Shown in pieces: positions 8,874-54,202 of a DNA stretch of 64,000 bases. The position numbers and the translations under genes were made by a program. Within the stretch, counting starts at the first letter, position 1. Each line of letters starts with the position of its first letter. The notes beneath the pieces were generated by a model. That model saw only the letters and a program-made list of their open reading frames with translations. It did no database searches and had not been told where the DNA came from. Source of the DNA: a virus (taxonomy: Duplodnaviria > Heunggongvirae > Uroviricota > Caudoviricetes); IMG/VR virus record IMGVR_UViG_2935054407_000002, positions 37,578 through 101,577 of that record; one strand, given 5' to 3'.

Positions 8874-9022
8874 TCAGGTCGGCCGTGCCCGAGGAGTGTT
8901 AGCGCACTCGCTCGGGCTTCTTATTGGGTTGTGTCTCGATCATCCCAGATGTGCCTGACATTCCGTGGGAATCAGCCCGTCAGGTGCCAAGAATCTGCAG
9001 GTCGCATGTAGGTGACCTAGGG

Positions 9023-9167
9023 TTATCTGGCGAGGATTCCGCTGTCGGCCAGTGCGAGGAAGCAGAGGCCGGCGGCGAGGAGCGCGATGGGCCAGGCGCG
9101 TTGTATGGCGGCCCAGATGGCGGATGCGAGGAAGGCCACGATGGCGAGCAGGAGGATGACGTTCATG
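9023..9167 (-). CDS. Small hydrophobic membrane peptide (47 aa)
   Basis: Good AGGAGA ribosome-binding site. Translation MNVILLLAIVAFLASAIWAAIQRAWPIALLAAGLCFLALADSGILAR. Not in the ORF track because it is under 60 aa. Confidence 0.45.
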
Positions 9168-9175
9168 GGTGTCTC

Positions 9176-9508
9176 CTAGATGAGACCTGGGTGTTTTTCC
9201 TGTGGACGCTGCCTGGGGATGCGTTTGGCTTGTGCTGCTTGTCCACCTTCGCGGGAGGACTTGGTGCGGTGGCAGTAGGGAGCGACGTTGTGATGGATGG
9301 CGGCCAGGTTCTCAAGCGAGTGGTCGTCGCCAACCACGATGTGGTCGACGCCGTCTGCTCCGGGGCCGCAGCAGACGTGGCAGATGCGCTGGTCTCGTTT
9401 GAGTACCTGGTTGCGGCGTTTGGGCCAGTCTGCGGGGAGGCGGTCTCGGCGATCAGATCCCTTCCATCCGCCGGCCATTAGCTCTTGATGCCCTTCTCGG
9501 CTGGCCAT
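9176..9508 (-). CDS. HNH endonuclease
   Basis: CHVCCG...DHIV...N...H signature. Confidence 0.8.
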   Translation of the reverse strand: MASREGHQELMAGGWKGSDRRDRLPADWPKRRNQVLKRDQRICHVCCGPGADGVDHIVVGDDHSLENLAAIHHNVAPYCHRTKSSREGGQAAQAKRIPRQRPQEKHPGLI

Positions 9509-9724: not shown

Positions 9725-9865
9725 TTAGGAACCCTGTTGTGGGGTCTTCTTGCGCTTCTTCGGCGAGGTCAGGAAGTTGCGTATGGCTCGGTTGGCCATA
9801 GCTGCCTGGCCTGCTTTGTCTGTGGGGATCAGGTCGGTGGAGCCCCAGGAGAATCGGTCAGCCAT
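9725..9865 (-). CDS. Small basic ORF (46 aa)
   Basis: ATG overlaps the ART gene stop (TGATG). Lys-rich C-terminus. Confidence 0.25.
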   Translation of the reverse strand: MADRFSWGSTDLIPTDKAGQAAMANRAIRNFLTSPKKRKKTPQQGS

Positions 9866-10671
9866 CAGAGCATCAGCTCCATGTGGACGTGCGGGACGCC
9901 TTTTCTGGTGGTCACGGAGACGACGCGGAACTTACTCCCTGGGGGGAGGACCATTTCGCGGTTGGATCCTGCAGCGGCTTTGGTTCCCTTGGGGAGGGTG
10001 ATTTCGGCGGTGGCTTGCCTGGTGGCTCGGCCTACGGATCCAACGTCGTTGGTGAGGCTGGTGGAGACGAAGCCCTTGTCGGAGAGTTCCTGACCTGGCT
10101 TGAGCTCGCCGAACTGGTCAGCGGAGAAGCCCCGGTAGACGGTCATGGGTTCCGTCAGCGGTGGGGCTTTCTTGATCGCCGAGTTGAGGTCTTTGCTGGC
10201 TTTGCGTGCCCGGTCGAGGTCGGCGTCGTTGAAGCTGACGTCGGCCTTGATGTCCTTGGAATTCAGTCCTCTGAGCTGGCCGTTCATCAGAGCGAACCCT
10301 GGTGACTGGTAGAACCGCATGGCCTTGTCCTGGGCAGGGCTGAGGCTGTTGCGCCAGGATCCGTAGTGGTCGTCGAGGAACTTCTTGTCCCGGGGGGCAG
10401 CCTTGGTGGTTCCTGCTGAGGGAGGGGTTTTCGCGGCGGGCTTCGCGGCGGGGGCCTTGGCGGCGCTCGGTTTGGGTGAGGCGACCGCTTGGGCGGTGCG
10501 CTTCACCGGCGGGGAGGCGGCGCCACGTCCGCTGTTCGCCTTCTTGGTGGAGGGCGTCTCAGCGGTCTTGGTTGTGGCTGGCTTGCGGCCGTGGTTCTTC
10601 TCAACGGTCGCCGCTGGTGTGAGAGGAACCCACCCATGCTTCCACTGCTGACCCGGGTAAGGGTGAGGCAT
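9865..10671 (-). CDS. ADP-ribosyltransferase (R-S-E clade toxin-like domain). N-terminal leader motif and Ala/Lys/Pro-rich linker.
   Basis: Aromatic-R (TVYRG), STS (GFVSTSL) and ARTT-loop-like GSNREMVLPPGSKFRVV motifs. N-terminus PGQQWKHGWVPLTPAA is shared with the upstream gene. Confidence 0.7.
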   Translation of the reverse strand: MPHPYPGQQWKHGWVPLTPAATVEKNHGRKPATTKTAETPSTKKANSGRGAASPPVKRTAQAVASPKPSAAKAPAAKPAAKTPPSAGTTKAAPRDKKFLDDHYGSWRNSLSPAQDKAMRFYQSPGFALMNGQLRGLNSKDIKADVSFNDADLDRARKASKDLNSAIKKAPPLTEPMTVYRGFSADQFGELKPGQELSDKGFVSTSLTNDVGSVGRATRQATAEITLPKGTKAAAGSNREMVLPPGSKFRVVSVTTRKGVPHVHMELML

Positions 10672-10813
10672 AGCGTCCCTCGCTTTCATGCACGAGTGGG
10701 CGCCATGCGAGGCGTCCGGCTGATTCGGGTTAAGGGAGGAGGTTCACTTTCGGCCAGCGGCTGCGCAGATCGCGTCGTCAGCCTTGCGGGAGTCGACTCC
10801 GCCCTTCGCGCCC

Positions 10814-12100: not shown

Positions 12101-12316
12101 CTATTCAGGGGCGGCTACAGCGATCGCGGAGACGCCAGACAGGAAGGTGAAGTCCACGCCAGGGAAGGACTTGCGGAGACTCGTCACCACGGCGTGAGTG
12201 TCCTCGGGGGTCGGGTCGTCGGAGAGGGTTACGAGGACCTTGTCGCCAGGGCGGAGAACGATCATGGCGGGGGTGGTCACGGTGCCGCCTTGTCCCCATA
12301 GGGCGACCAGGCGCAT
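12101..12316 (-). CDS. Hypothetical protein
   Basis: 71 aa ORF with coding-like codon usage. Confidence 0.4.
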   Translation of the reverse strand: MRLVALWGQGGTVTTPAMIVLRPGDKVLVTLSDDPTPEDTHAVVTSLRKSFPGVDFTFLSGVSAIAVAAPE

Positions 12317-12468
12317 TCCTCACAAACTGCGTAGCCGCCAATGGTGTGGATACCTTCAGCGGTAATGGCGGTGATGGTCGCGGTCTGGAGCGTGCTCTTC
12401 AGGCAGTGGGGACACCACTCATGGCGAAGATCACTAATGATGGGGATTGCCTGTTCGGACTCCGTCAT
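12277..12468 (-). CDS. Small zinc-ribbon protein
   Basis: CPHC...CEEC pair of CxxC motifs. Confidence 0.45.
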   Translation of the reverse strand: MTESEQAIPIISDLRHEWCPHCLKSTLQTATITAITAEGIHTIGGYAVCEECAWSPYGDKAAP

Positions 12469-12623
12469 CCTGTGGCGCCCTTGATGCTGGCCTGGAGCAT
12501 CTGGCCAAGCAGGAACAGCGCCTGCGGCTCGGTGAATCCCGCGTTCAGGTAAGCGAGGAACAGCTCGTGGAGCTGGGCGGCGCCTTCAGCGAGGAGAGTG
12601 ATCGGATCCTCGGGATCAGGCAT
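12465..12623 (-). CDS. Small hypothetical protein (52 aa)
   Basis: ATGA overlaps with both neighbours. MPDPEDPITLLAEGAAQLHELFLAYLNAGFTEPQALFLLGQMLQASIKGATG. Confidence 0.4.
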   Translation of the reverse strand: MPDPEDPITLLAEGAAQLHELFLAYLNAGFTEPQALFLLGQMLQASIKGATG

Positions 12624-13077
12624 CGGTGGGCGCTCCGTCCTCGCTGATCAGACCGCTCCGAACCCACCCTGTCTGCTCGTTGTACAGATCCGAAGGAGGC
12701 GGCCAGGTACGGTAGATACTCCAGTTGGTGCCACCGTCTTCGGTGAACTCAACCTCTATCCGCTGACTGTCTGCTCGCATCTCCACACTGCTGTCCGCGT
12801 ACTCATCTTCGACGCGGAGGAGACCGCCGACGACGCTGATAGTGCGCTTGGTGAGGCGAGCGGCCCGCTGAGCGTTGGCCAGGGTGACCGCTTCTCTAAT
12901 GCCGGAGCCGCCGGATGGCTCGAAGACCACCAGTTGGGGTTGCGCCACTATGACGTCTTCGGTCAGCGACGGTGCAGCCTGCTCAACGAGTTGCCGCACC
13001 TCTTGATGGGTGAACCCTGCGGCGCGGAGTTCTTCCCGGTAGGTGGCGAGACGCTGGGCGGTTGTCAGTTCGGTCAC
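12616..13077 (-). CDS. Hypothetical protein
   Basis: 153 aa ORF with good codon bias. Confidence 0.5.
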   Translation of the reverse strand: MTELTTAQRLATYREELRAAGFTHQEVRQLVEQAAPSLTEDVIVAQPQLVVFEPSGGSGIREAVTLANAQRAARLTKRTISVVGGLLRVEDEYADSSVEMRADSQRIEVEFTEDGGTNWSIYRTWPPPSDLYNEQTGWVRSGLISEDGAPTDA

Positions 13078-13082
13078 GTGCT

Positions 13083-13129
13083 CTCCTCATGGGTGGGCGA
13101 GAGCCCCGACCCATGAGGAGGTCGGGGCT
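13083..13129. promoter_or_regulatory. Nested perfect inverted repeats in a divergent intergenic region
   Basis: ctcctcatggg/cccatgaggag and gagagccccgac/gtcggggctctc. Candidate operator or bidirectional terminator. Confidence 0.4.
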
Positions 13130-13265
13130 CTCTACCTCCGGTAGCTAGCCGGAGGGTTCTTGATGGGCTGAAAAGCGAAATACCAGCCGTCACTAATCGT
13201 GTCTGGGGTGAATCGCGGTGTAGTTCCCATAACGACCGCCTCGCTGGCCCCACCTGTTTCCTACG

Positions 13266-13922
13266 GTGTGCGTCATGGCCAACAACACCGCCACAGGATG
13301 TGGAACGCTCCTCGTTGTCGCTCTCCTCGTAGGCGGCTGCATGAGCCTGTTCAACGGCGACGACGAACCCGTAGCGGCGCAACCCGCACAGCCCGTGGCA
13401 GTTCCCGACTGGGCGAACAAACCGCTCGTTGAGGCAGAGAACGAAGCGAAGGCTCTCGGGCTGGACCTGTCGTCTTCCGGACTGACCGGTAGCTTCTGCA
13501 GCGACGAAACCGACTGCTTCATCTACAAGACGGTTCCGAAAGCCGGGACCGCGGTTACGGCGGGCGCGAAGGTCGCGGTGAAGTGGTGGGACAAGGAAGA
13601 ACGCACGTTCCACCGGAAGTACCGGAAGATGCCAAACGTCGTTGGCTGGTCCGAGGAGAAGGCCAACAAGCTGCTGGAACCGATCTACTGGTCCGTCGAA
13701 GAACGCCGCAAGGAGACGACAAGAATCCCGGTGGGCGCTCACCGTGTCCTGGCGCAGTCCCCCAGAGCGGGCCGGCCGTTGAGGGTGGGACAGAAGGTGA
13801 AGCTGGTGATCGGCTTCAACTTCGGCTCAACCTCAGGTGATGGCGGTGGGGGTGGGAGCTTCAGCAGCGGTGATGGCAACGATGGCGAGGGCCGGTTCTG
13901 TGGTCGCCGCTGGTGGTGCTGA
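13266..13922 (+). CDS. Lipoprotein with two PASTA-like domains and a Gly-rich C-terminus (opposite-strand moron)
   Basis: Signal peptide with a lipobox-like LVGGC. PASTA-like segments (KPLVEAENEAKALGLDL...; MPNVVGWSEEKANKLLEP...). Only sizeable + strand gene in the late region. Confidence 0.6.
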   Translation: MCVMANNTATGCGTLLVVALLVGGCMSLFNGDDEPVAAQPAQPVAVPDWANKPLVEAENEAKALGLDLSSSGLTGSFCSDETDCFIYKTVPKAGTAVTAGAKVAVKWWDKEERTFHRKYRKMPNVVGWSEEKANKLLEPIYWSVEERRKETTRIPVGAHRVLAQSPRAGRPLRVGQKVKLVIGFNFGSTSGDGGGGGSFSSGDGNDGEGRFCGRRWWC

Positions 13923-13927
13923 CGGGA

Positions 13928-14629
13928 TTACGGGTGGGCGCTGGAGGCGAGCACGCTTGGGTTGTGCTCCGCGACGAGAGGGCGGACCGCTTCGGGGTCG
14001 CCTTCGGCTTCAACGTAGCGGCCCATGAGCGCCATGTTCGCCTGGTAGAGCAGGCTGGATGGGTCGATTTCGCTGGGGTGCCAGAGGTGGAAGATCGTGC
14101 CCTCATGCTTGGCAGTCGGGCCGAGAAGCGCATCACAGGCAACCCTCGCGGCCGTGTCCTCGGCGCCCCAACCTTGGAACCGCTCGTCCATTCCGCCAGC
14201 CTGCCACCATGCGGAAGGTTGGATTACCAGAATGCCGCCGGTGGACCAGTCGGTTTCGAGCTCGGTCGCGCACAGGTAGGCGGGAGTCCCTGCGAGGTAG
14301 GCGTCCGTTCCCTGTGGGGAGAGTCCGCGGAAGTGCGTGTAGGGCAGGTGAAGGAGTCCGTCGTGGGCGCTCTCGACCGCCGCGAGGAGCGGTTCCCGCT
14401 CGGGCAGCGTGTCTGCGTCGCACAGGACGACCACGTCAGCGCCAACGTCCTGGGCGAGGCGAACACCGTGGTTGCGTGACCCCGCGCGGGAAAACGGTGT
14501 GTGGCCTGAGTCTGCGTCGATGTGCCACGCATCCGGCAGCAGGGTTCGCAGGTGGGCGCGCACCGTTTCGTGGTGGCGCTCCCGATCCGGCTGGCCGCCA
14601 CGCCAGGGGATTACGACTGCGACGCGCAC
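13928..14629 (-). CDS. GT-A fold glycosyltransferase (GT2-like)
   Basis: VVIPWRG...CDAD (DxD) motif. Confidence 0.65.
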   Translation of the reverse strand: MRVAVVIPWRGGQPDRERHHETVRAHLRTLLPDAWHIDADSGHTPFSRAGSRNHGVRLAQDVGADVVVLCDADTLPEREPLLAAVESAHDGLLHLPYTHFRGLSPQGTDAYLAGTPAYLCATELETDWSTGGILVIQPSAWWQAGGMDERFQGWGAEDTAARVACDALLGPTAKHEGTIFHLWHPSEIDPSSLLYQANMALMGRYVEAEGDPEAVRPLVAEHNPSVLASSAHP

Positions 14630-14639
14630 ATGACCTCCC

Positions 14640-15224
14640 TCAGGTCTTGCGGAACACAGCCCATGGGCGCTCCGGCTCGATGCGCTTCAGGCCGCGCTTC
14701 TCCGCTTCGGCCTTCTGCGCGTCGGGGTGCCAGGTGGTGACGTCGATCCAGATCTGAGCCTCTTCGGGGTTGTCCGAGGTGGGCCAGTCCACGACGATGA
14801 GTCCGCCCTTGCGGACGGCCTTGACGAGCCCGTCGAGGATGGCCAAGGCCGAAGATCGCGGGTGGTGGATCAGCACCGCCAGGCACACCACGGCGTCTAC
14901 CTTGTGGCCGATCTGCTCGTACAGGTCACTGCCGTCGGAGAGGACCTGCGGCATGTCGGGGTCGTTCTCGGCGAGGTGGGCGAGCATCTTCGGCGAGGCA
15001 TCCGCGCCGGTCACGTCGAACCCGAGACGCTTCAGCGGGATCGCTACCCGGCCATCGCCACAGCCGAAGTCCACAACGCGTGAACCTGGCTTGAGGACCT
15101 CGGCGAGCTGCAGGGCGGCCTGTTCACCAGATGCCCAGTACGCCTCTTCGGAGACGCCGCGCGACGGGTGAATATGAGCGGGGCCTGCCTGGTCCCAGGC
15201 GTCGATGACCTCTTGGCCTGTCAT
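14640..15224 (-). CDS. Class I SAM-dependent methyltransferase
   Basis: Motif I VVDFGCGDGRVAIPL. ATGA overlap with the upstream dehydrogenase gene. Confidence 0.75.
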   Translation of the reverse strand: MTGQEVIDAWDQAGPAHIHPSRGVSEEAYWASGEQAALQLAEVLKPGSRVVDFGCGDGRVAIPLKRLGFDVTGADASPKMLAHLAENDPDMPQVLSDGSDLYEQIGHKVDAVVCLAVLIHHPRSSALAILDGLVKAVRKGGLIVVDWPTSDNPEEAQIWIDVTTWHPDAQKAEAEKRGLKRIEPERPWAVFRKT

Positions 15225-16471
15225 GACTTCCGTCCGATCCGAATCACCGTCACGCCCGTCTGGTCAGGCATGTAGCCATGCGGGTCCAGCACCACCGAAC
15301 CAGCAGGGAACGCGTAGTCCACGAACTGCGGGTGCTTGGTGCCGATCACGTACACGTGGGGCTTGTCGAGTGGGCGATGACGCTTCGGCTCCACGAACGG
15401 GTCGTAGAGCCCCACCTGGCGTTGCCGGTCACGCAGCTGGTGGGCGAGGAGACGCGCTGGCGAGCCCGCGGTGAGCGCGCTGCTGGGCTTGTATGCCTCA
15501 CCGAGAATGTAGATGTCGAGGCCGGTCTGATCTGCCCACCGCTCTGCGAGGTCAGCCAGCCACCCTGACTGTGCTTCTCGGGCGTAGGCCATCTGGCCGA
15601 GCAGGTCGTAGGACAGTTCCAGGCGTTGAGCGAGCCATGACATGGCGATCAGGTCGCGGGGGTGGCAGGCGCCGCCGTCTCCCATGCCGCCCCGCAGGTA
15701 CTTCGGGGAGATCACCCGCTCGGTCGCGAGGGACAGGGCGTCGATGACCTGGTCGCAGTCAGCGCCGGTCTTCTCGCAGATCTCCATGAGGGTGTTGCCG
15801 ATGACGACCTTCGCGGAGATGACTGTGTTGTACGCGACCTTGATCAGTTCAGCGGACTCGATGGACGTCTTGAACACCGGCCGGTCATGAAGTTGCCCGT
15901 ACACCTCGACCACAGGGGTCAGGTGTTCGGGCCGGTCGGCGCCCATGAGGACGAACTCCGGCTCCAAGAAGTCCGCGATCGTCGTCCCCATCGCGATGAA
16001 CAGCGGGCTGTACACGAGGGTGACGTGGGCGTTCAGCAAGCCCCGCAGGTGCTTGTTGCACGTACCCGGCAGCGCCGTGGACACCACAACGAGCGTGATC
16101 GCCTTGGCCTGCTGGGCAGCGGCCCGGCACACATCCCGAACCGCCTGGGTGAGGAACCCGTACTCGAAGTCTCGGCGATCGTAGGGGGCAGGCGCCTCGC
16201 CGCCGTAGGCAGGAGCGTGCGGCGTCTGCACCGCGACAAACACCACATCGGCGTGGGCAACGACCTCGGCCACCGTGTGAGCGAGCTTCAACGGGCCAGA
16301 GTCGATCAGGTCCGCGAATCCCTGCTCGCCCTGGTCCCCACCTTCGGAGAACATGCGCTCGACTCGGGCTCGGTCGATGTCGTAGCCGATGACGTCGTGG
16401 CCAGCGAGGTGGTGCAGCGCCATGGCGCAGGGGGCGCCCAACTTGCCGAGGCCAATCCAGCCGACGTTCAT
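15221..16471 (-). CDS. Nucleotide-sugar dehydrogenase (UDP-glucose/GDP-mannose 6-dehydrogenase family)
   Basis: N-terminal NAD-binding MNVGWIGLGKLG. Family-typical central and C-terminal domains. Confidence 0.8.
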   Translation of the reverse strand: MNVGWIGLGKLGAPCAMALHHLAGHDVIGYDIDRARVERMFSEGGDQGEQGFADLIDSGPLKLAHTVAEVVAHADVVFVAVQTPHAPAYGGEAPAPYDRRDFEYGFLTQAVRDVCRAAAQQAKAITLVVVSTALPGTCNKHLRGLLNAHVTLVYSPLFIAMGTTIADFLEPEFVLMGADRPEHLTPVVEVYGQLHDRPVFKTSIESAELIKVAYNTVISAKVVIGNTLMEICEKTGADCDQVIDALSLATERVISPKYLRGGMGDGGACHPRDLIAMSWLAQRLELSYDLLGQMAYAREAQSGWLADLAERWADQTGLDIYILGEAYKPSSALTAGSPARLLAHQLRDRQRQVGLYDPFVEPKRHRPLDKPHVYVIGTKHPQFVDYAFPAGSVVLDPHGYMPDQTGVTVIRIGRKS

Positions 16472-17124
16472 GGGGTCCTTCCGGGGGTCCAAGCTGCCCG
16501 GAGCGCCTCAACATCGCGAGCTCTGGCGGCCTTCATGGGGGGTGAGTGGTAGTCCGCGGTCCGGTACCCGGCCTGGGCATCACGCCAGGTCTCGTCGTCG
16601 TGTCCGCCGGTCAGGTCGTGACGGTCGTGGAGGACGTTCACCACGATGCGGTGGTGGGCGCCTACCGCGGCCGCGACATCCTGGGCCCAAGAGTCACAGT
16701 GCGGGGACAGGCTGAAGTGACCGAGGACGTCCACCATGCTGCGGTGGACGATCGGGAAGATGTTCAGGGCTGGCGAGTCGTTGTGTGCCGGCCACAGCAC
16801 GCCGCAAGGCGCCTCAGCGACCCGGGAGTCCCAGCCGGGAGTGAGCATCCTCGCGTCGTCGTTCCACAGCAGCAGCCACTCCCCCGACGCCATGGCGGCG
16901 AGGTGGTTCACGTACTCGTGGAGCTGATGGTAGCCGTACCTGGTGGGCGCCACCCAGCAGGTGGCCCGGGACCGCTCAGCCGCTTCAACGGTGTCAGGGT
17001 CGTCGGGGTCCGCAGCAACCAGGATCTCCAGACGGTCCGGGTTGTCGGCCATGACGCGTAGGGAGCCGATCGAGTCCGCCAGCGAGGATGGGCGTCCACG
17101 GGAGGGCAGCAACACAGAGATCAT
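16468..17124 (-). CDS. GT-A fold glycosyltransferase (GT2)
   Basis: ISVLLPSRGRP N-terminal GT2 signature. 4-nt overlaps with neighbours. Confidence 0.7.
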   Translation of the reverse strand: MISVLLPSRGRPSSLADSIGSLRVMADNPDRLEILVAADPDDPDTVEAAERSRATCWVAPTRYGYHQLHEYVNHLAAMASGEWLLLWNDDARMLTPGWDSRVAEAPCGVLWPAHNDSPALNIFPIVHRSMVDVLGHFSLSPHCDSWAQDVAAAVGAHHRIVVNVLHDRHDLTGGHDDETWRDAQAGYRTADYHSPPMKAARARDVEALRAAWTPGRTP

Positions 17125-17434: not shown

Positions 17435-20400
17435 TCAACGTTGAGGTGAGCCGATAGACCAGGCCCTCGATGGAGCACCGACCGCCCATGCCCTTGAGGC
17501 TGGGGACCCTGCGGACCAGAGCCTTTCGGGAGGCCCGATCGTCCACGGGATTCCACCGCCAGGAACGCCAGTGGAAACGGTGGGCGTAGGAACGCTCGCC
17601 GTGGCCGCGACCCTGGATGGTCTCGCCGTGGCCGTGATGGCTGCGGCGGGGATCGTGGTCGTGGCCTGCACCGTCGCCGGGTTTACGGTGACGATGGTCG
17701 TCGCGGTGGTGGTCGGCGTCGGGATCGCCGCCGTGGCTGTGACCACCGTGATGGCGATCGAGGCGCTGGCCGAGGTGGTGGGAGATGGGATCGCTGCAGC
17801 CGCGGTGACAGTCGTCGGCGAAGCCGTGGTGTTGCCGTCGGCGGTGACCTCGGGCAGTGGGACCGACGCAGTGACCGACACGACTGAGGGAGCCGCGGTG
17901 GCGCCTGCGGTCGTCACTGGGCTCGGGACGAGCGCAGACGCCGCCACAACGCTCGGCGAGGCGGTGCCCTCTGTGGAGACTCCCGGAGCGCCTACCGACG
18001 CTGTAGAGGCGACCACAGCCGGGCTGGCGGTGGACCCCGTGGCAGTGGTGGGCGCTCCAACCGAGGCGATCGCAGCCACCGTGTTGGGGCTGGCCGTGAT
18101 CGACGACCCCGACTGCACCGACGGCGCCGGGATGGACGTCGTCGCGACTACAACCGCCGGCGTGGCGGTCGAGGCCGAGGCGATGGTGGGCGCCGGGATA
18201 GACGAGCTCGCGGAGACCGTTGCCGGACTCGCGGTGGAGCCTGCCGAAGCAGTCGCCGTAGGCACCGTCGCCGCGGCCTGGACCGTGGCTGGTGCCGTGG
18301 TCTGGCCTGCGGATGCGGTGGGCGCTGGGACGGTCGCTGAAGCGGACACGACCGCTGGGTTGGCGGTGGTGTTGCCTGCGGCCGATACCGATGGAGTCGG
18401 AACGGACGCTGCCGCGGAGACGACGCTCGCCGTGACCGTCGAACTGGTGGTCACCGTCGGGGAGCTGATGCTCGCCGACGCCTGCACGACTGCGGGAGCC
18501 ACGGAGGCGCCCGTGGTTGTCGACGGGGCCGGGACGATCGCGTTGGCGCCCACCGTGGCCGGGGCCGCAGTGGAGCCTGCCGCAGTCGACGGCGCCGGCA
18601 CGGAAGCTGCCGCACTGACAACCGCCGGGGAAGCGACCTTCTGCGCGACAACCGACGGAGCCGGGACCGCCGAGACTGCGGAGACCGTTGCTGGTGAGGC
18701 TGTAGAGCCCCCAGACGCGACAGGAGCGGGGATGGAGGCGGATGCCTGCACCGTGGCGGGTGCGGCGGTCTTGACCGCTGTGACCGCCGGGACGGGCACC
18801 GTAGCCGAAGCTGCCACCACTGCAGGGCTGGCTGAGGCTCCAGCCGACACCGTAGGTGCTGGGACGGAGCTGGTGGCCTGAACCCTGGCCGGAGAAGCCG
18901 AGGAACCCGTCCTCGTGGAAGGAGCGGGAACCGACGCTGTAGCCGAGACGACCGCAGGCGATGCTGACGAGCCCGTCCTCGTGGATGGGGTCGGGATGGT
19001 CGCCGTGGCAGAGACCGTGGTGGGTACGGACGTCGCGTCGGCCGAAGCAGTCGGGGACGCTACCGACGACGTTGCCGGCACAACCGCCGGGGTAGCGGTC
19101 GCGTCAACCGGAGCTGAACCGCCGCTGCCGGCGACGCCGACGGTGAAGCCGACCTCGAAACCCAAGGCGATGCTGGCGGTGAAGTCCTGAGCGGCCGTCG
19201 GTGTTGACGACGTCAGTTCTTTGATCGCAACCGCGGCCGAGGTGTAGCTCTGCGACTGAGTGTCGCCCACCTCGTCATACCCGGCCGGTGGAGTCCAGGT
19301 GATGAAGTCAGCGCCGTTTTCGGCTATAGCTGCGGCGAAACGGAACTCCAAGCTCAGGGCGCCGCCGGGGGTGATGCCTGGGGAGGTGGAGATGGTGCCG
19401 GTGCCCGCGGTGGACTGGTCAACCACCGGGGTGGCATCGTCCGCGCCTTGGACAGCAGCGACGAAAATTACGCCGTCCGCGCTGGCGTTCTGGGTGAACC
19501 CGTAACTGGCCGGCTCTGAGGCGCCCGCGACTTTCCACCACAGTTTGACTTGGATTGTGGACTGGCCGGCTGTGTACTCGTCCAGGAGAAGCCAGGTGGC
19601 GCCGCCCGTTGGGGTGGGCATGTCGGCCAGGAAGCCAACGTCAGCGGCTTGCAGGGCGAGGAGAACGTCGCCTTCGGTCACGCCGGTTGGTTTGTTGACG
19701 TTTCCGCTGGCGCCCACCAGTGTGGCGGCGACGATGTCTCCGCGCAGGGTGGGCGGGGTAGAGCCGTCGTCAACCCCCGGGGTGGGGATGGTGGTGGAGG
19801 CTGCGGCCACGGGCGGGGCAGCCCTCGCCGCCGCTGAGACCGTGGGTGCGGGGATGGATGCGGCGCACGCCACCACAGCGGGGTTGGCGATGAGGCCGGT
19901 CGTTGCTGACGGCGCTGGGACGGATGCCGTAGCAGACACCACGCTGGGCGAGACGGCACTACCCGCTGAAGTATCCGGGGCGGGAACACTGGCCGTAGCT
20001 GCAACCACATCAGGAGTAGCGGTCGCATCCACAGAGGTTGACGCCGTCGGAACACAGACAACGAACCCCAGGCGGGCGTCCATCGACGCGTTAGCCACCA
20101 CCGCGACCGTGCCCGTAGAGCCGCCGGTGGTGCGGTGCCGGGTAGACGACATGCCGGAGGTGCGGGTACCCGACTGGGCTTCGCCACGCTTGGTGTGCGG
20201 AGCCGACACACCCCACGGGGTGAGGGTTGCTCCAGCGGTGGCGTCACCGAAAGCGAACCGGACCTCGCAGTCATCGGTTCCGATCGCGGTGGTGGACGGT
20301 GTGGTGACGTTCGACCCGACACCTGAGGTGTTGTTCGCCGATGCGGTGGTGGTAGCGTCCGCGCCCTGCACAGCGATGATGATGACCACGCCGTTGGAGC

Positions 20401-20653
20401 CACTGGACTTACCGAAGCTATAGCTGCCCGGCTCAGACGGGCCCGCGACCTTCAACCACAAACGGCCAAGAACGGTCGCGGACCGCTCCTGAAGCTGAGT
20501 CCACCCCGACGCGGTCAGAGAAGAGATCCCGCCAGCGTTGGAGGCGCTGGCCGCAATCAGCACATCGCCTTCGACAACGCCGGACGGCTTCGCACACGAG
20601 ATGCTGGTGCCGGTACCAGTCGCTGTGGAGTGAGACCGGTACGTCGCAGCCAC
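17435..20653 (-). CDS. Giant Ser/Thr/Ala/Pro/Val-repeat protein: two paralogous globular domains, each followed by ~17-aa PAP-containing repeats, and a Trp-repeat C-terminus
   Basis: Domain 1 (about 1-205) and domain 2 (about 300-480) share GV(V/T)EGDVL...LW(L/W)KVAG(P/A)SEP(G/A)SY(S/G)F...GV(V/I)...AVQGAD. About 35 repeats of TASVPAPS...PAVV. C-terminus RLWSAGSP/RAWAVGAP/RAWSIGSP. No signal peptide. Confidence 0.7.
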   Translation of the reverse strand: MAATYRSHSTATGTGTSISCAKPSGVVEGDVLIAASASNAGGISSLTASGWTQLQERSATVLGRLWLKVAGPSEPGSYSFGKSSGSNGVVIIIAVQGADATTTASANNTSGVGSNVTTPSTTAIGTDDCEVRFAFGDATAGATLTPWGVSAPHTKRGEAQSGTRTSGMSSTRHRTTGGSTGTVAVVANASMDARLGFVVCVPTASTSVDATATPDVVAATASVPAPDTSAGSAVSPSVVSATASVPAPSATTGLIANPAVVACAASIPAPTVSAAARAAPPVAAASTTIPTPGVDDGSTPPTLRGDIVAATLVGASGNVNKPTGVTEGDVLLALQAADVGFLADMPTPTGGATWLLLDEYTAGQSTIQVKLWWKVAGASEPASYGFTQNASADGVIFVAAVQGADDATPVVDQSTAGTGTISTSPGITPGGALSLEFRFAAAIAENGADFITWTPPAGYDEVGDTQSQSYTSAAVAIKELTSSTPTAAQDFTASIALGFEVGFTVGVAGSGGSAPVDATATPAVVPATSSVASPTASADATSVPTTVSATATIPTPSTRTGSSASPAVVSATASVPAPSTRTGSSASPARVQATSSVPAPTVSAGASASPAVVAASATVPVPAVTAVKTAAPATVQASASIPAPVASGGSTASPATVSAVSAVPAPSVVAQKVASPAVVSAAASVPAPSTAAGSTAAPATVGANAIVPAPSTTTGASVAPAVVQASASISSPTVTTSSTVTASVVSAAASVPTPSVSAAGNTTANPAVVSASATVPAPTASAGQTTAPATVQAAATVPTATASAGSTASPATVSASSSIPAPTIASASTATPAVVVATTSIPAPSVQSGSSITASPNTVAAIASVGAPTTATGSTASPAVVASTASVGAPGVSTEGTASPSVVAASALVPSPVTTAGATAAPSVVSVTASVPLPEVTADGNTTASPTTVTAAAAIPSPTTSASASIAITVVTATAAIPTPTTTATTIVTVNPATVQATTTIPAAAITATARPSRVAATASVPTPTVSTGVPGGGIPWTIGPPERLWSAGSPASRAWAVGAPSRAWSIGSPQR
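17563..19111 (-). repeat. Long tandem array of ~51-bp (17-aa) repeats inside the giant gene
   Basis: Highly repetitive GC-rich DNA. All frames are open, which explains the spurious overlapping ORFs. Confidence 0.75.
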
Positions 20654-30806: not shown

Positions 30807-31322
30807 CGCCTCCAGGGCGGCTTCTACGGTCGGGCAAGCACTGAGGTAGGAGCACTTGCCGCACAGCTCTACACAGCGGCACAGCTCCGTTTTAGCGTGG
30901 TTCGCGGCGTGCTGGAGGATCCCCCGAGCCGCACACCACAGATCATCCGCCATCATCGGTTGCCCGCAGAGGGTGACGCCGATGTAGGAGCCCGGCCCCG
31001 CCTCCCGAACGGCTCCGGACGTGTACCGTCCTCGGCGGGTCGTGGGCGGCTCCAGGTGCGGCGGCACAGCGGGGTCGCGGACGTGCAGCGTCCCGAACGC
31101 TGGCCCGTCGTCGGGGGCGAGGTGGTTCGTCGGCCCCATCCACAAGGTGCCCGCCGGCGGGTGCGCGGACCGTCGCAGCCAGTTGGTCATGGTCTGGGCT
31201 CGGGCCGCCGACACCTGCTCGTCGGCCTCCCGGCGGAGACGGTCCACCTCCACGCGCAGGAACAGCGCCTCGCGGCGAAGCGTCTCCTCGGACGCCTTGT
31301 CGAGCTGGGCGACGGTCAGCAT
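30801..31322 (-). CDS. Hypothetical protein with a C-terminal Cys cluster
   Basis: CRCVELCGKCSYLSACP. Confidence 0.5.
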   Translation of the reverse strand: MLTVAQLDKASEETLRREALFLRVEVDRLRREADEQVSAARAQTMTNWLRRSAHPPAGTLWMGPTNHLAPDDGPAFGTLHVRDPAVPPHLEPPTTRRGRYTSGAVREAGPGSYIGVTLCGQPMMADDLWCAARGILQHAANHAKTELCRCVELCGKCSYLSACPTVEAALEAM

Positions 31323-32128
31323 CGAATCTCCTCGGCGCTAACGCGGTTCAGGCTCGGCAGAGGCGGGATGATCTCGGCCAGCCATCCGTCAGGGGCCGCG
31401 GTGAAGTGCGGCGCCGCCTCCGAGACCCACCGGGAGCGGACAGCCCTGGTGGTTGTCTCCTCCTGGGTGCGCTTGTCCACGTACGTGATGTCCTCCTCCG
31501 CCGTGTGGCGGACACACACCCTGCCGCGCTTCACACCGGCCGGGTAGTCGTTCCAGTTGATGCCGTGCTCGGTCCACAGCATGTCCTGCATCTTCCCGGC
31601 GGAGACGCCGTTGAGCTGCTTGTGGGAGAACTTCGCCTGCGCCGCCATCGTGACGCTGTTGCGGACGCAGTCGCGTTGCCGCCACAGGAAGTAGTTCGCG
31701 ACTTCGACGGGGTCGGGGATGGTGAAGACGCGGGCGTCGAACGTGGCGTGGGCGTCGTCGTAGCTGATGCCGTAGACGCGATTGAACGCAACGGTGGCGG
31801 TGGACGCGGCGATCGAGGCGATCTTCTGCACGACCCCGCCGAACCACGGCTGCGTGCCGTGGGCGTCGAAGTCCGTCAGCAGGATCGAGCACTCATCCGA
31901 CTGGGTGAACGCAAACACGCTGCCGGACATCTCCGCGCACAGGGCTTCGGCGACGGCGTCCATGGCGGCGACCACGGCGAAGTCGTACGGCTTGTCCGCG
32001 TGCCTCAGGAGGCTGTGAAAGGCCCTGCCATCGACCCGGGCGACGGTGAACGTGCGGCGCGGCAGAACCATGCGGGTCGGCTGCTCATACGCCTTGATGC
32101 GGTCTCCGAGAGCCGTCTTGTCGGTCAT
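31316..32128 (-). CDS. Thg1-like protein (tRNA-His guanylyltransferase / 3'-5' polymerase family)
   Basis: Thg1 motifs TVARVDGRAFHSL (cf. VVRLDGRNFH), FTQSDECSILL (cf. GQSDEYSFVF), YFLWRQRDCVRNS (cf. YLSWRQADCHINN). Confidence 0.7.
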   Translation of the reverse strand: MTDKTALGDRIKAYEQPTRMVLPRRTFTVARVDGRAFHSLLRHADKPYDFAVVAAMDAVAEALCAEMSGSVFAFTQSDECSILLTDFDAHGTQPWFGGVVQKIASIAASTATVAFNRVYGISYDDAHATFDARVFTIPDPVEVANYFLWRQRDCVRNSVTMAAQAKFSHKQLNGVSAGKMQDMLWTEHGINWNDYPAGVKRGRVCVRHTAEEDITYVDKRTQEETTTRAVRSRWVSEAAPHFTAAPDGWLAEIIPPLPSLNRVSAEEIRC

Positions 32129-32207
32129 GTGATCTCTTCCAGGGGTGGGGGAGATGGGTTCAGTTTGCCTGTGCCGGCCCGTAGGAGGCGGGCCGACAAC
32201 GGCAGAG

Positions 32208-32507
32208 TTAGGGCGCCTCGTGGTTGCACGTGACGACGGGAACGTTCCCTGTGGCATCCAAGACGGCCCACGCCTCGTTGAGGGTGTCGAACTGGCCGAG
32301 CGGTTCGATGTCCAGGCCGAGACGGCGGTGCGCGGAGACGTCCTTGGTGTTCGGGTGCGTTTCGCGGTGCTCCGCCATCCACTCGTGCAGGTGGTGCTCG
32401 ACGATAGCCGGGCGGGGGCTCTCGCCGTCGGGGTGAGTTGCAACGCGGTACACGTGGGCGTGGTAGCCGTCTGACTCGCAGACACAGCGGGCAGAGGGGT
32501 CGTCCAT
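32208..32507 (-). CDS. His-rich hypothetical protein
   Basis: Start MDDPSARCVCESDGYHAHVY... Confidence 0.4.
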   Translation of the reverse strand: MDDPSARCVCESDGYHAHVYRVATHPDGESPRPAIVEHHLHEWMAEHRETHPNTKDVSAHRRLGLDIEPLGQFDTLNEAWAVLDATGNVPVVTCNHEAP

Positions 32508-42847: not shown

Positions 42848-42910
42848 TGGCCTCTTAGCGTTTCGGGGGGTGCCAAATAACACCGGTGGCCAAGGTTCCC
42901 CTTGATCCGG

Positions 42911-42981
42911 GTGTACGTACACCTTACACTTTGGTGTACGTACACCGCCAGGAGGTCACTTTGAAATCCGTACGTACACCC
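42911..42981. promoter_or_regulatory. Operator cluster: three copies of the palindrome GTGTACGTACAC
   Basis: Perfect 12-bp palindromes at 42911-42922 and 42935-42946. A third, partial copy overlaps the TTG start of the RHH gene. Confidence 0.6.
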
Positions 42982-43227
42982 CGCACACTGGGGAGCGTGC
43001 CCAACAAGCCCCGCACCCAGCACCGGTCGGTTCGCGTCGATGACGCCGACTGGGGAGACCTCGACGCGGTCGCGGAGATGAGCGGCACCGACCGAGCGAA
43101 GATCATCAACGCGTACATCCAGTACCACCTGCACCGGGCAGGAGCGAGCCTCCCCGAACGACCGACACGCGAGCAGGTGGCTAAGGCCATCGCGCACCGC
43201 GTGCTCGGCTCTCCTGCTTCTGACTGA
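42961..43227 (+). CDS. Ribbon-helix-helix (CopG/Arc-like) DNA-binding protein
   Basis: AGGAGG, six bases, then a TTG start. RSVRVDDADWGDLDAVAEMSGTDRAKIINAYIQ fits the RHH beta-alpha-alpha pattern. Confidence 0.55.
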   Translation: MKSVRTPRTLGSVPNKPRTQHRSVRVDDADWGDLDAVAEMSGTDRAKIINAYIQYHLHRAGASLPERPTREQVAKAIAHRVLGSPASD

Positions 43228-46486: not shown

Positions 46487-46680
46487 CAGGTTGCCTCCGT
46501 TCGGTGCTGTTCGGCAGTGTTCAAAACCGTCCACTCGTGTCCAGCGGTCTCCAGTGCTGTCCGGGTGAGAGCGGCCATCGCGGCGACCCGGGCCCGCGCC
46601 GCCGCCGCCGCGGTCTCGTCCGCGGCGGCACGTTCCAGGCACGGCAAGTGCGCAGCCAGGCGAGCAAGCGTGGCCTCAGG
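46486..46680 (-). CDS. Small hypothetical protein
   Basis: Start MPEATLARLAAHLPCLER... Confidence 0.3.
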   Translation of the reverse strand, partial: PEATLARLAAHLPCLERAAADETAAAAARARVAAMAALTRTALETAGHEWTVLNTAEQHRTEAT

Positions 46681-53952: not shown

Positions 53953-54202
53953 CACGTCCCCTCCTCTCCTCGCGTGTGGTGGTTGGTTGGGTCTGCTGGC
54001 TCCCGTTCAGCAGAGAGACCCGGAAGGTCCCGTACGTCCCGCCCTCTCAAAGAGGGCGGGACCGACGGGTTAGGGGTGCGGCTGTGCTTGAGCGGGGTCG
54101 GGGCGATCGACGGCGAACAGGCCGTCGTCCTCATCGGGATCGACTCGCGGGTCCTCGGCGGGCTCTTCGGGCTTCAGGCACACGGGCAGATCAGCCACCG
54201 CG

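What the first reader, a model, noticed from the sequence alone, without database searches (positions are those of the whole stretch)
13083..13922. Opposite-strand PASTA-domain lipoprotein moron with nested inverted repeats upstream
This is the only sizeable + strand gene in the late region. It encodes a lipoprotein with two PASTA-like domains, which bind peptidoglycan or muropeptides, and a Gly-rich tail. It is convergent with the glycosylation operon. Upstream lies a nested perfect palindrome: ctcctcatggg/cccatgaggag enclosing gagagccccgac/gtcggggctctc. The gene is likely expressed in the lysogen as a lysogenic-conversion or superinfection factor that acts on the cell wall.
Basis: partly seen in the sequence, partly recalled or inferred. 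Interest (0 to 1): 0.6.

Follow-up and report, generated by a model that had tools for sequence, protein, structure and literature searches.

The report
Prophage moron encoding PASTA lipoprotein
A Streptosporangium prophage carries, on the strand opposite to all its neighbours, a host-derived gene for a small membrane-anchored protein with two cell-wall-binding (PASTA) domains; the gene recurs in unrelated prophages and in non-phage islands, so it is very probably an accessory "moron" acting on the host envelope, though what it does is untested.

Summary
The gene is real, at 13275-13922 (+), 215 aa, starting at the ATG rather than the GTG at 13266. It has a lipobox-type signal peptide, two PASTA domains (Pfam E=7.5e-19), a Gly/Asp-rich spacer and an unnoticed, family-wide C-terminal motif, F-C-x4-WW-C.

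The window is a serine-integrase prophage of Streptosporangium sp. NPDC050855. This is the only credible + strand gene in the packaging/glycosylation region.

Moron status is well supported. Homologues lie on the opposite strand at the same place in a distant relative (L001). In a different siphophage lineage (L009, probably L010) they sit in the structural operon. Others lie in non-phage islands, including a paralogue in the same genome. A -10-like TAC(C/G)GT lies 6-7 nt before the ATG, and a TAACG motif lies exactly 27 nt upstream of it; both are shared with non-phage copies.

The palindromes exist verbatim but are interleaved, not nested. They belong to a phage-backbone double hairpin with an anti-Shine-Dalgarno loop, which also occurs in phage contigs that show no PASTA gene in the DNA held.

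Expression in the lysogen and an exclusion or cell-wall role remain inference. No similar protein was found in 50,697 sequenced phages or in PHROGs.

The parts
13275..13922 (+). CDS of the 215-aa PASTA lipoprotein. Start is ATG 13275; stop codon is 13920-13922.
   Evidence: ORF. Coding statistics. 100% identical to P0001, 'PASTA domain-containing protein', Streptosporangium sp. NPDC050855, 215 aa. All homologues start MA(R/S/N).
13275..13340 (+). Signal peptide with lipobox L-V-G-G-C. Cys22 (codon 13338-13340) is the predicted lipidated residue.
   Evidence: G20, G21 and C22 are invariant. A PROSITE-like lipobox pattern is matched in 21 of 23 family members. This segment aligns to the TM segment of the Stk1/PknB model.
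13392..13592 (+). PASTA domain 1 (about aa 40-106), containing the invariant Cys75/Cys81 pair.
   Evidence: Pfam, 2 stretches. PDB alignment to 3py9/3m9g. AF2 pLDDT is about 70-86 here, with helix plus strand topology. Foldseek hits are PASTA domains.
13626..13823 (+). PASTA domain 2 (about aa 118-183), joined to domain 1 by a conserved basic helix (F/W-YRKxRKMP).
   Evidence: The best Pfam stretch is residues 121-183 in the numbering of the 218-aa GTG-start ORF that was scanned, covering model positions 2-63 of 64; this is aa 118-180 in the 215-aa numbering used here. Secondary structure from AF2. Invariant QSPxxGxPLRxGQ.
13824..13892 (+). Low-complexity Gly/Ser/Asp-rich spacer.
   Evidence: Sequence. 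Variable among homologues. pLDDT below 50.
13893..13919 (+). Extreme C-terminal motif R-F-C-G-R-R-W-W-C-COOH, a basic and Trp-rich Cx5C loop.
   Evidence: F208, C209, W213 and C215 are invariant. The motif is present in 21 of 23 members of the wider family. Function unknown.
13262..13267 (+). -10-like hexamer TACGGT (TANNNT), 7 nt before the ATG. There is no Shine-Dalgarno, so this is a leaderless-type promoter (inferred).
   Evidence: TAC(C/G)GT lies 6-7 nt before the ATG in W, L001, L002, L003, L007 and L008, although the flanks diverge.
13217..13238 (+). Conserved upstream motif GGTGTAGTTCCCATAACGACCG. TAACG ends exactly 27 nt before the -10-like hexamer. Candidate binding site for a host factor.
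   Evidence: The 22 nt are identical in the paralogue of the same genome (L003) and in L007. The TAACG motif and the 27-nt spacing are kept in W, L001, L002, L003 and L008. There is no second site above chance in the window.
13099..13132 (-). Hairpin B: 13-bp perfect stem GAGAGCCCCGACC/GGTCGGGGCTCTC with an 8-nt loop. On the minus-strand RNA the loop carries an anti-SD (CCUCCUCAUG).
   Evidence: Conserved in L001, L017 and L020, with 98% of cells paired in the helix and changes on one or both sides at its three loop-proximal pairs.
13135..13155 (-). Hairpin C: 7-bp stem CCTCCGG/CCGGAGG with a 7-nt loop.
   Evidence: 100% paired in 4 sequences, with one pair changed on both sides.
13083..13120 (-). 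Alternative helix A (arms 13083-13097 and 13106-13120). It pairs the Shine-Dalgarno GAGGAG of gene 12616-13077 with the loop and 3' arm of hairpin B, so it excludes hairpin B.
   Evidence: Inverted repeat I2, 15 nt, 93% complementary. A core of 9 bp is kept in all 4 sequences, with one C-G to U-A double change in L017. With only four sequences the statistical support is weak.
12616..13077 (-). First minus-strand gene after the cassette (153 aa, unknown function). Its SD lies in arm A1.
   Evidence: No credible family hit.
13928..14629 (-). Glycosyltransferase, the last gene of the glycosylation block. Its stop lies 5 nt from the PASTA stop (convergent).
   Evidence: Pfam Glyco_transf_7C and GT2-like. 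48% identical to a gene of L001.

Best explanation
Window 13165-13922 (approximate left edge) is a host-derived moron cassette inserted, in reverse orientation, between the glycosylation block and the packaging genes of a temperate siphovirus-like prophage of Streptosporangium.

The cassette carries its own leaderless-type promoter, inferred from two features: a TAACG-containing upstream motif and, 27 nt downstream of it, a TACGGT hexamer 7 nt before the ATG.

It encodes a 215-aa protein that is exported and lipid-anchored at Cys22 on the outer face of the membrane (inferred from the lipobox). The protein displays two PASTA domains (shown). A flexible Gly/Asp-rich spacer follows, ending in a disulfide-capable Arg/Trp-rich loop, C-GRRWW-C, which probably gives a second contact with the anionic membrane or wall (inferred).

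The promoter elements are shared with non-phage copies, and the gene opposes the lytic transcription direction, as do the prophage's HTH repressor candidates. The gene is therefore most likely transcribed by host machinery in the lysogen, independently of the lytic programme (inferred).

The likeliest action is at the envelope. The PASTA domains would bind peptidoglycan precursors or uncross-linked wall next to the membrane and change what happens there. My first choice is exclusion of incoming phage or conjugative DNA, in the manner of surface lipoproteins such as Ltp. This would fit the family's presence on prophages, on an AICE-like element and in a defence-like island.

The upstream palindromes are not part of this gene's control. 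They are a backbone double hairpin that acts on the minus-strand transcript, as a terminator or attenuator with an SD-sequestering alternative fold for gene 12616-13077.
For: - Domain identity.
- Lipobox, conserved cysteines and C-terminal motif.
- Prophage nature: capsid, portal, TerL and HNH; large serine recombinase, DnaB, WhiB and Bro/ANT; + strand HTH genes.
- It is the only well-scoring + strand gene among the packaging and glycosylation genes.
- Recurrence as an opposite-strand island. L001 has the same position although TerL is only 38% and the capsid 29% identical. In L009 the gene lies between head-tail connector genes of a different phage type (PHROGs). L010 has a parallel layout by gene calling.
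- Non-phage copies: L002/L005, L003/L004/L007, L006 and L008.
- In an NJ tree (no bootstrap) the phage copies fall in two clades, each next to non-phage copies.
- Shared promoter elements with fixed spacing across phage and non-phage copies.
- The hairpins are a backbone element. In L020 a sugar-epimerase gene, 66% identical to that of L001, is followed directly by the hairpins, an SD and the next gene. L017 shows the same element after another small gene. Neither has a PASTA gene in the DNA held.
- Precedent that a kinase-less, membrane-anchored PASTA ectodomain is biologically active: over-expression of PknB TM-PASTA in mycobacteria delays regrowth and raises beta-lactam sensitivity (PMC4632501).
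- Precedent for prophage-encoded lipoproteins that exclude superinfecting phage: Ltp of phage TP-J34 (PMC3952083).
Against: - There are no expression data. The E. coli-type sigma-70 consensus scan finds no promoter here, and the proposed -10 and upstream motif rest on conservation in about 6 sequences.
- No terminator follows the gene. There are 5 nt to the next gene's stop, so one classic moron feature is missing.
- The window copy lacks K/R in the signal-peptide n-region. SignalP and LipoP could not be run.
- The AF2 model has only moderate confidence (mean pLDDT 58.6).
- There is no similarity to any known exclusion or defence protein apart from a PASTA-only overlap with the PD-T4-6 kinase model.
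- The gene is not in the int/repressor lysogeny module, where Ltp-type genes sit.
- Sharing a promoter motif with a host paralogue could equally mean a host-physiology role rather than exclusion.
Confidence: 0.45

Rival explanations
1. Decoy or dominant-negative modulator of host PASTA-kinase signalling. The kinase-less, membrane-anchored PASTA module competes with, or heterodimerises with, the PknB-like kinases of the host for muropeptide or lipid II. This would retune growth, branching, germination or envelope-stress signalling in the lysogen, or blunt a kinase-based abortive response.
For: - The protein aligns to the TM plus PASTA part (positions 343-495 of 563) of the Stk1/PknB model and of the PD-T4-6 kinase model, with no kinase domain.
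- Its closest solved relatives are kinase PASTA regions.
- Over-expressed TM-PASTA of PknB perturbs mycobacterial growth and beta-lactam sensitivity (PMC4632501).
Against: - The family has its own conserved architecture (lipobox, inter-domain helix, C-terminal Cx5C motif). It is not a recent truncation of a kinase gene: identity to the kinase PASTA structures matched in the fold search is only about 16-24%.
- No kinase gene is consistently adjacent. Two Pkinase genes lie about 6-10 kb away in L002 only.
Confidence: 0.2
2. Passenger host gene with a housekeeping or developmental envelope role, such as wall homeostasis in hyphae or spores. On this view it has merely been captured by mobile elements, remains under host regulation, and gives the phage no exclusion or defence benefit.
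For: - Non-phage copies exist in four genera or MAGs.
- The upstream 22-nt motif is identical to that of the host paralogue.
- A roughly 400-aa HTH_31 regulator lies near the gene in L002, L003 and L007 (29-30% identical between genera).
Against: - The gene is independently retained, always opposite to the flow of the neighbouring phage genes, in two phage lineages.
- All invariant residues are kept in the phage copies.
- The non-phage contexts are themselves accessory: AICE-like genes, and DUF4365 with a HerA/STAND-like ATPase.
- The family is small and patchy. Only 7 close homologues were found in 5.8 billion proteins, and about 20 full-length cluster representatives in 1.84 billion.
Confidence: 0.15
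3. Lytic-cycle function. The gene would be expressed during infection to block the phage's own receptor or wall-binding sites, in the manner of T5 Llp (own knowledge). This would protect progeny from adsorbing to debris or delay superinfection, rather than acting as a lysogenic-conversion factor.
For: It lies at the junction of the glycosylation and packaging genes. It is a surface-exposed lipoprotein, as Llp is (own knowledge).
Against: It is antiparallel to every lytic gene around it and would face head-on transcription. Its promoter elements are shared with non-phage copies, not with other phage promoters in the window.
Confidence: 0.1
4. One reading: the palindromes are a nested operator or regulatory element that controls the PASTA gene.
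For: They lie in the 197-bp divergent intergenic region upstream of the gene (13078-13274) and are conserved in L001.
Against: - The arms are interleaved, not nested.
- The same element, with its SD, occurs in L017 and L020 with no PASTA gene in the DNA held.
- It is absent from all non-phage copies and from L009 and L010, which keep the gene.
- The stem GAGAGCCCCG/CGGGGCTCTC is a common terminator-like hairpin in high-GC viral contigs (62 loci).
Confidence: 0.05

Closest known systems
Extracellular PASTA region of PknB/Stk1/PrkC Ser/Thr kinases (PF03793; PDB 3py9, 3m9g, 5e10)
   Same: Tandem PASTA domains tethered to the outer face of the membrane by an N-terminal hydrophobic segment. Similarity is seen at both sequence and fold level.
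   Different: There is no cytoplasmic kinase domain: 43.9 bits against the 450-bit cutoff of the equivalog model. It has a lipobox instead of a plain TM helix, only two PASTA units, a conserved Cys pair in PASTA 1, and a Gly-rich spacer with a C-terminal F-C-x4-WW-C motif that kinases lack.
Ltp-type superinfection-exclusion lipoproteins of temperate streptococcal phages (TP-J34; PMC3952083)
   Same: A prophage-encoded, surface-exposed lipoprotein with two repeated small domains, proposed to act outside the membrane.
   Different: No sequence relation: PHROGs gives no hit. The domains are PASTA rather than HTH-like repeats. The gene is not in the int/repressor module. No exclusion phenotype has been tested.
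Morons and prophage-expressed defence genes of actinobacteriophages (e.g. Sbash, CarolAnn, Butters; PMC6426596, PMC6426606, PMC7542560)
   Same: An accessory gene of a temperate actinophage, variably present among relatives, and predicted to be expressed from the prophage and to act at the membrane.
   Different: The protein family is different. Here the cassette is also found outside phages and carries host-type promoter elements. No terminator was found and no expression data exist.
Over-expressed TM-PASTA fragment of M. tuberculosis PknB (PMC4632501)
   Same: A kinase-less, membrane-anchored PASTA ectodomain. This experiment shows that such a fragment can alter growth and beta-lactam sensitivity.
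   Different: That is an artificial truncation with four PASTA units. The protein here is a natural, separately evolving two-PASTA lipoprotein family.
Intrinsic (often U-tract-less) GC-rich terminator hairpins of high-GC phages
   Same: Hairpins B and C are perfect GC-rich stems at a gene junction. The same 10-bp stem sequence recurs in 62 viral contig loci.
   Different: There is no U-tract on the minus strand. The loop carries an anti-SD that can pair with the SD of the next gene, which suggests translational or attenuation control rather than simple termination.

Membership tests
PASTA domain (Pfam PF03793) | Profile match above the curated gathering score | tested here: met
   67.9 bits against a 23.2 cutoff, E=7.5e-19, two stretches. 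The best stretch covers model positions 2-63 of 64.
PASTA domain (Pfam PF03793) | Small alpha plus three-strand beta fold, as in the PASTA units of PknB and PBP2x | tested here: met
   The AF2 model shows helix plus strands twice, with pLDDT about 70-86 in domain 1 and about 50-75 in domain 2. The top 29 Foldseek PDB hits are all PASTA domains, best E=3.5e-4. Model confidence is moderate.
PASTA domain (Pfam PF03793) | Binds peptidoglycan fragments, lipid II or beta-lactams | not testable with these tools
   Needs binding assays with the purified ectodomain.
PASTA Ser/Thr kinases (NCBIfam NF033483, Stk1/PknB) | N-terminal cytoplasmic Hanks-type kinase domain | tested here: not met
   Only model positions 343-495 of 563 align. 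The score is 43.9 bits against a 450 cutoff. The protein has about 12 residues before the hydrophobic segment.
Bacterial lipoproteins (PROSITE PS51257-type lipobox) | Lipobox [LIVMFWSTAG]2-[LIVMFYSTAGCQ]-[AGS]-C after an uncharged hydrophobic stretch, with the Cys at about position 15-35 | tested here: met
   L-V-G-G-C with Cys22. The regex is matched in 21 of 23 family members, and G20, G21 and C22 are invariant.
Bacterial lipoproteins (PROSITE PS51257-type lipobox) | Positively charged n-region | tested here: not met
   The window copy begins MANNTATG and has no K/R in its first 8 residues. 21 of the 22 relatives tested have 1-3.
Bacterial lipoproteins (PROSITE PS51257-type lipobox) | Lgt/LspA processing and lipidation | not testable with these tools
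   Needs globomycin treatment, lipid labelling or mass spectrometry. SignalP and LipoP were not available.
Phage moron (an added gene unit between conserved phage genes) | Present in some related phages and absent from others, or at different positions, and flanked by backbone genes | tested here: met
   The gene is at the same position in W and L001. In L009 it lies between head-tail connector genes, and L010 has a parallel layout. It is absent next to the homologous hairpin element in L017 and L020.
Phage moron (an added gene unit between conserved phage genes) | Own promoter | tested here: inconclusive
   A conserved TAC(C/G)GT lies 6-7 nt before the ATG, with a TAACG motif 27 nt upstream of it, in 5-6 loci. 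The E. coli-type consensus scan finds nothing. No TSS data exist.
Phage moron (an added gene unit between conserved phage genes) | Own terminator | tested here: not met
   There are 5 nt between the stop codon and the stop of the convergent glycosyltransferase gene. No terminator-like site lies downstream on the + strand.
Phage moron (an added gene unit between conserved phage genes) | Expressed from the repressed prophage | not testable with these tools
   Needs RNA-seq of the lysogen.
Ltp-type Sie lipoproteins | Sequence or domain homology to Ltp, and a location in the lysogeny module | tested here: not met
   No PHROGs family at E<=0.01. The gene is about 47 kb from the integrase and repressor region.
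PD-T4-6 anti-phage kinase (PADLOC) | Full-length match that includes the kinase domain | tested here: not met
   Only model positions 328-484 of 547 match, E=3.4e-9. This is overlap of the TM and PASTA part only.
Intrinsic terminator (for the hairpins) | GC-rich stem followed by a U-tract on the transcribed strand | tested here: inconclusive
   The stems are strong. On the + strand hairpin C is followed by GTTCTTGATG. On the minus strand there is no U-tract, and the SD of the next gene follows within about 20 nt.

The most novel reading that the evidence does not exclude
A small family of kinase-less PASTA lipoproteins, carried by mobile elements and so far seen mainly in Streptosporangiaceae, is a new kind of envelope-level exclusion or lysogenic-conversion factor. 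Tethered by an N-terminal lipid and by a C-terminal disulfide-closed Arg/Trp loop, it would occupy nascent peptidoglycan or lipid II next to the membrane. That would block DNA entry by phages or conjugative elements, or blind the host's PASTA-kinase wall sensing. It would be the first PASTA-based phage accessory function, and the C-terminal F-C-x4-WW-C motif would be a previously undescribed anchoring or binding module.
Probability: 0.25. Interest if true: 0.7.

Novelty: new variant of a known kind. Interest (0 to 1): 0.5.

Why it matters
PASTA domains are known as the wall-sensing modules of essential kinases and penicillin-binding proteins. A free-standing, lipid-anchored version that moves between prophages, an AICE-like element and genomic islands suggests that mobile elements exploit peptidoglycan-precursor binding for their own ends.

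If the protein excludes phages or conjugation, or alters beta-lactam or wall-stress responses, it would add a new mechanism class to prophage-mediated defence in actinomycetes. It would also be a natural tool for probing PASTA ligand recognition.

The cassette is also an unusually clean example of moron capture, because both the promoter elements and the gene are shared between host and phage copies.

If the protein does nothing of that kind, it is simply an accessory envelope lipoprotein that PGAP has already annotated generically.

Tried and rejected
- Megablast of the locus, and of 50 kb of the window, against 50,697 phage records gave only short capsid-level hits to mycobacteriophages and one Arthrobacter phage hit. 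Nothing matched the locus itself.
- tblastn of the protein against the same phage collection gave no match at E<=1e-3.
- PHROGs gave no family for the protein.
- PADLOC gave only a PASTA-region overlap with a kinase model. I rejected this as membership.
- Rfam on 12800-14100 gave only sub-threshold chance hits (anti-hemB, 22.8 bits against 49.5).
- The sigma-70 consensus scan found no promoter.
- A search for further copies of the upstream motif in the window found one 3-mismatch hit at 62080, at chance level. There is therefore no evidence that the phage repressor uses this motif.
- GTG 13266 as the start codon: rejected, because it overlaps the -10-like hexamer and homologues start at the ATG.
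- Minus-strand ORF 13074-13742 (222 aa) and + strand ORF 12598-13116: rejected on codon statistics.
- H-type pseudoknot reading of the interleaved arms: rejected by reasoning. B1 and A2 overlap, and there is no linker between A2 and B2.
- Covariation statistics for the hairpins: only 4 sequences were available, and the shuffle controls were not significant. The conservation is real, but the statistical support for the structure is weak.
- Literature searches for phage-encoded PASTA proteins: no paper combined 'PASTA domain', 'phage' and 'superinfection exclusion', and the six papers found with 'PASTA domain', 'prophage' and 'lipoprotein' did not look relevant from their titles and abstracts.
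Full report
**1. What is at the coordinates**

The + strand ORF ending at 13922 is real. Its third-position GC is 0.77. The overlapping minus-strand ORF 13074-13742 has 0.59, while the neighbouring phage genes have 0.71-0.85.

I ran a codon-model gene call on the whole window. About 87 of the 94 calls are on the minus strand. This gene scores 40 and is by far the best + strand call. The only other + strand call in the first 21 kb (8924-9481) is weak and overlaps an HNH gene on the minus strand.

The true start is ATG 13275, giving 215 aa. The identical database protein P0001 (Streptosporangium sp. NPDC050855, on a 315-kb contig, named 'PASTA domain-containing protein') has that length. All homologues begin MA(R/S/N).

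**2. The protein**

- **PASTA domains.** Pfam PASTA scores 67.9 bits (cutoff 23.2; E=7.5e-19) in two stretches. NCBIfam aligns residues 13-180 to positions 343-495 of the Stk1/PknB PASTA-kinase model, which is the TM segment plus PASTA units. The score of 43.9 bits is far below the 450-bit cutoff, and there is no kinase domain.
- **Structure.** A profile of the family hits the solved S. aureus Stk1 PASTA region, 3py9 and 3m9g. The AF2 model has a mean pLDDT of 58.6, with about 70-86 in domain 1. It shows two helix-plus-strand units joined by a helix. The 29 best Foldseek PDB matches are all PASTA domains of PknB, Stk1, StkP, PBP1 or PBP2x.
- **N-terminus.** It carries an invariant lipobox-like V-G-G-C, with Cys22. 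A PROSITE-type lipobox pattern is matched in 21 of 23 family members. The window copy, however, has no K/R in its n-region.
There is an invariant Cys75/Cys81 pair in PASTA 1. After the Gly/Asp-rich spacer there is an invariant extreme C-terminus, F-C-x4-W-W-C-COOH. It is kept even in the most distant full-length members. It is basic and Trp-rich and could close by a disulfide. I read it as a second membrane or wall contact, but that is inference only.

**3. The host element**

The window is a temperate siphovirus-like prophage.

- Structural and packaging genes: capsid, portal, TerL and two HNH genes. To the left of the window lie connectors, tail tube and a tape-measure protein.
- Lysogeny and replication genes: a large serine recombinase at 62150-63643, plus DnaB, WhiB and Bro/ANT.
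- The only other credible + strand genes are HTH proteins at 60870-61379 and 53608-53952. These are repressor candidates.
- The PASTA gene lies between a glycosylation block and the small genes that precede HNH and TerL. The block holds a glycosyltransferase, a methyltransferase, an NDP-sugar dehydrogenase and a second, weakly supported GT2-like gene. The gene's stop is 5 nt from the stop of the glycosyltransferase gene.

**4. Relatives and contexts**

The family is small. There are 7 close homologues among 5.8 billion proteins. An exhaustive profile search of 1.84 billion representatives found about 20 full-length cluster representatives. Those that carry a taxon name are Streptosporangium, Sphaerisporangium and Nonomuraea.

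| Locus | Context |
|---|---|
| L001 (Streptosporangium sp. NPDC004631) | Only distantly related prophage (TerL 38%, capsid 29% identical). PASTA gene (58% identical) on the opposite strand at the equivalent position |
| L009 (IMG/VR) | A different phage type. The gene again lies on the opposite strand, here between head-tail connector genes in the middle of the structural operon |
| L010 (IMG/VR) | Parallel gene layout to L009 by my gene call; not annotated with PHROGs |
| L002/L005 (Sphaerisporangium) | Non-phage |
| L003/L004/L007 (L003 is a second copy in the same genome as the window) | Non-phage, next to a roughly 390-aa HTH_31 regulator and AICE-like genes |
| L006 (Nonomuraea) | Non-phage, next to DUF4365 and a HerA/STAND-like ATPase |
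| L008 (MAG) | Non-phage |

In an NJ tree without bootstrap support, the phage copies form two clades, each next to non-phage copies. This implies at least two exchanges between phage and non-phage DNA. No similar protein exists in 50,697 deposited phage genomes or in PHROGs.

**5. Promoter**

In W, L001, L002, L003, L007 and L008 a TANNNT hexamer, TAC(C/G)GT, lies 6-7 nt before the ATG with no Shine-Dalgarno. This is the geometry of actinobacterial leaderless transcripts (own knowledge).

A TAACG-containing motif ends exactly 27 nt upstream of the hexamer in five independent loci (W, L001, L002, L003 and L008), although the spacer sequence is not conserved. Twenty-two nucleotides (GGTGTAGTTCCCATAACGACCG) are identical between the window and the paralogue of the same genome, even though the proteins are only about 46% identical.

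The L006/L009/L010 clade has a GGAG Shine-Dalgarno instead.

The cassette therefore carries host-type control elements. This supports expression independent of the phage lytic programme, but it is not proof. The generic sigma-70 scan is negative.

**6. The palindromes**

The quoted arms are present, but they are interleaved. Helix A uses 13083-13097 with 13106-13120. Hairpin B uses 13099-13111 with 13120-13132. The two exclude each other. A third hairpin, C, at 13135-13155 follows. Both strands fold into B plus C.

On the minus-strand RNA, B and C lie about 20 nt before the SD (GAGGAG) and the GTG of gene 12616-13077. The loop of B carries the anti-SD that forms helix A.

The whole element, including the SD, is conserved in L001. 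It is also conserved in two IMG/VR contigs, L017 and L020, which show no PASTA gene in the DNA held. In L020 it follows directly the stop of a sugar-epimerase gene that is 66% identical to the one in L001. In L017 it follows a homologue of window gene 12277-12468.

The pairs of B and C are kept in 98.8% of cells, with two pairs changed on both sides. Helix A keeps a 9-bp core, with one C-G to U-A double change. With four sequences the shuffle controls are not significant.

The stem sequence itself is a common terminator-like hairpin in high-GC viral contigs (62 loci). There is no credible Rfam match.

My conclusion is that this is a backbone terminator or attenuator with a possible SD-sequestration switch for the next late gene. 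The PASTA cassette was inserted beside it. It is not the cassette's operator.

**7. Mechanism**

*Shown:*
- a two-PASTA protein with a conserved lipobox;
- the recurrent opposite-strand position in phages;
- homologues outside phages;
- promoter elements shared with those homologues.

*Inferred:*
- export and lipidation;
- transcription in the lysogen;
- binding of peptidoglycan precursors at the membrane surface.

My preferred effect is envelope-level exclusion of incoming phage or conjugative DNA. The analogy is with prophage lipoproteins such as Ltp (PMC3952083). The family's association with several kinds of mobile or defence-type DNA also fits.

The main rival is interference with host PASTA-kinase sensing. 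Experiments showing that kinase-less TM-PASTA of PknB perturbs mycobacterial growth and beta-lactam sensitivity make this plausible (PMC4632501). A passenger host function and a lytic-cycle role analogous to T5 Llp cannot be excluded.

**8. Verdict**

The moron interpretation is well supported. The palindrome interpretation is wrong in both topology and ownership. The functional claims remain untested.

PGAP already labels the protein generically. As a phage accessory gene, however, a lipid-anchored PASTA protein with this C-terminal motif appears undescribed: two literature searches, the phage collection and PHROGs turned up nothing comparable. I rate it a new variant of a known kind (prophage moron or surface lipoprotein) of moderate interest.

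Noticed in passing
window 13893-13919 (aa 207-215) and all family members: The extreme C-terminus is invariant: F-C-x4/5-(W)W-C-COOH. It is Arg/Lys- and Trp-rich and follows a Gly/Asp-rich spacer. It is present in 21 of 23 family members, including the most distant ones. No TM segment follows it, so it does not look like a known sortase or exosortase-type signal.
   Followed up: partly
window 13078-13160 (minus strand); L001 9803-9886; L017 about 1295-1380; L020 about 1465-1550: A conserved double hairpin whose loop carries an anti-Shine-Dalgarno complementary to the SD of the next gene. It is found in four phage sequences, two of which show no PASTA gene in the DNA held. It may be an attenuator or translational switch at the start of the packaging gene block.
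   Followed up: partly
window 42910-42946: Two copies of the self-palindromic 14-mer GGTGTACGTACACC, 23 bp apart start to start. They look like operators and lie at the start of a weak + strand ORF (42886-43227), between minus-strand early genes.
   Followed up: no
window 60870-61379 (+) and 53608-53952 (+): These are the only other credible + strand genes, and both are HTH (HTH_31/HTH_3) proteins. The first lies next to the large serine recombinase (62150-63643) and is a likely immunity repressor. A perfect 12-bp hairpin at 54036-54062 follows the second.
   Followed up: partly
window 13217-13238 and L003 9943-9964: A 22-nt stretch, GGTGTAGTTCCCATAACGACCG, is identical upstream of the prophage PASTA gene and of its paralogue elsewhere in the same genome. 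The paralogue sits next to a 390-aa HTH_31 regulator, so a host factor may co-regulate both copies.
   Followed up: partly
window 13928-17124, 562-1572 and 17435-20653; L073 11641-12627: The prophage has an extensive glycosylation capacity. It includes a glycosyltransferase and a second, weakly supported GT2-like gene, a methyltransferase, an NDP-sugar dehydrogenase and two GT4 genes placed between the capsid and connector genes. Next to them is a 1072-aa protein made of Ala/Ser/Thr/Pro-rich repeats. Together these suggest glycosylated virion proteins.
   Followed up: no
window 31316-32485; 54344-55177; 45707-46642; 9865-10689: Unusual prophage cargo: a Thg1-like tRNA-His guanylyltransferase, an SPFH/Band 7 protein, a 311-aa WhiB-domain fusion, and an ADP-ribosyltransferase-like protein just upstream of the HNH and terminase genes.
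   Followed up: no
L073 (Logan contig SRR35531633_396, 65,253 bp): In the Logan assembly of sequencing run SRR35531633 (apparently the same strain), the prophage structural region lies on a separate contig of 65,253 bp. This is close to the expected phage genome size and might reflect excised or replicating phage DNA, or only assembly fragmentation.
   Followed up: no
L002 7274-8494; L003 8449-9621; L007 6065-7255: A roughly 400-aa HTH_31 (XRE-type) regulator lies within 0.4-1.5 kb of the non-phage PASTA genes in two genera (29-30% identity between genera). NUDIX genes also lie nearby in L002 and L003.
   Followed up: partly
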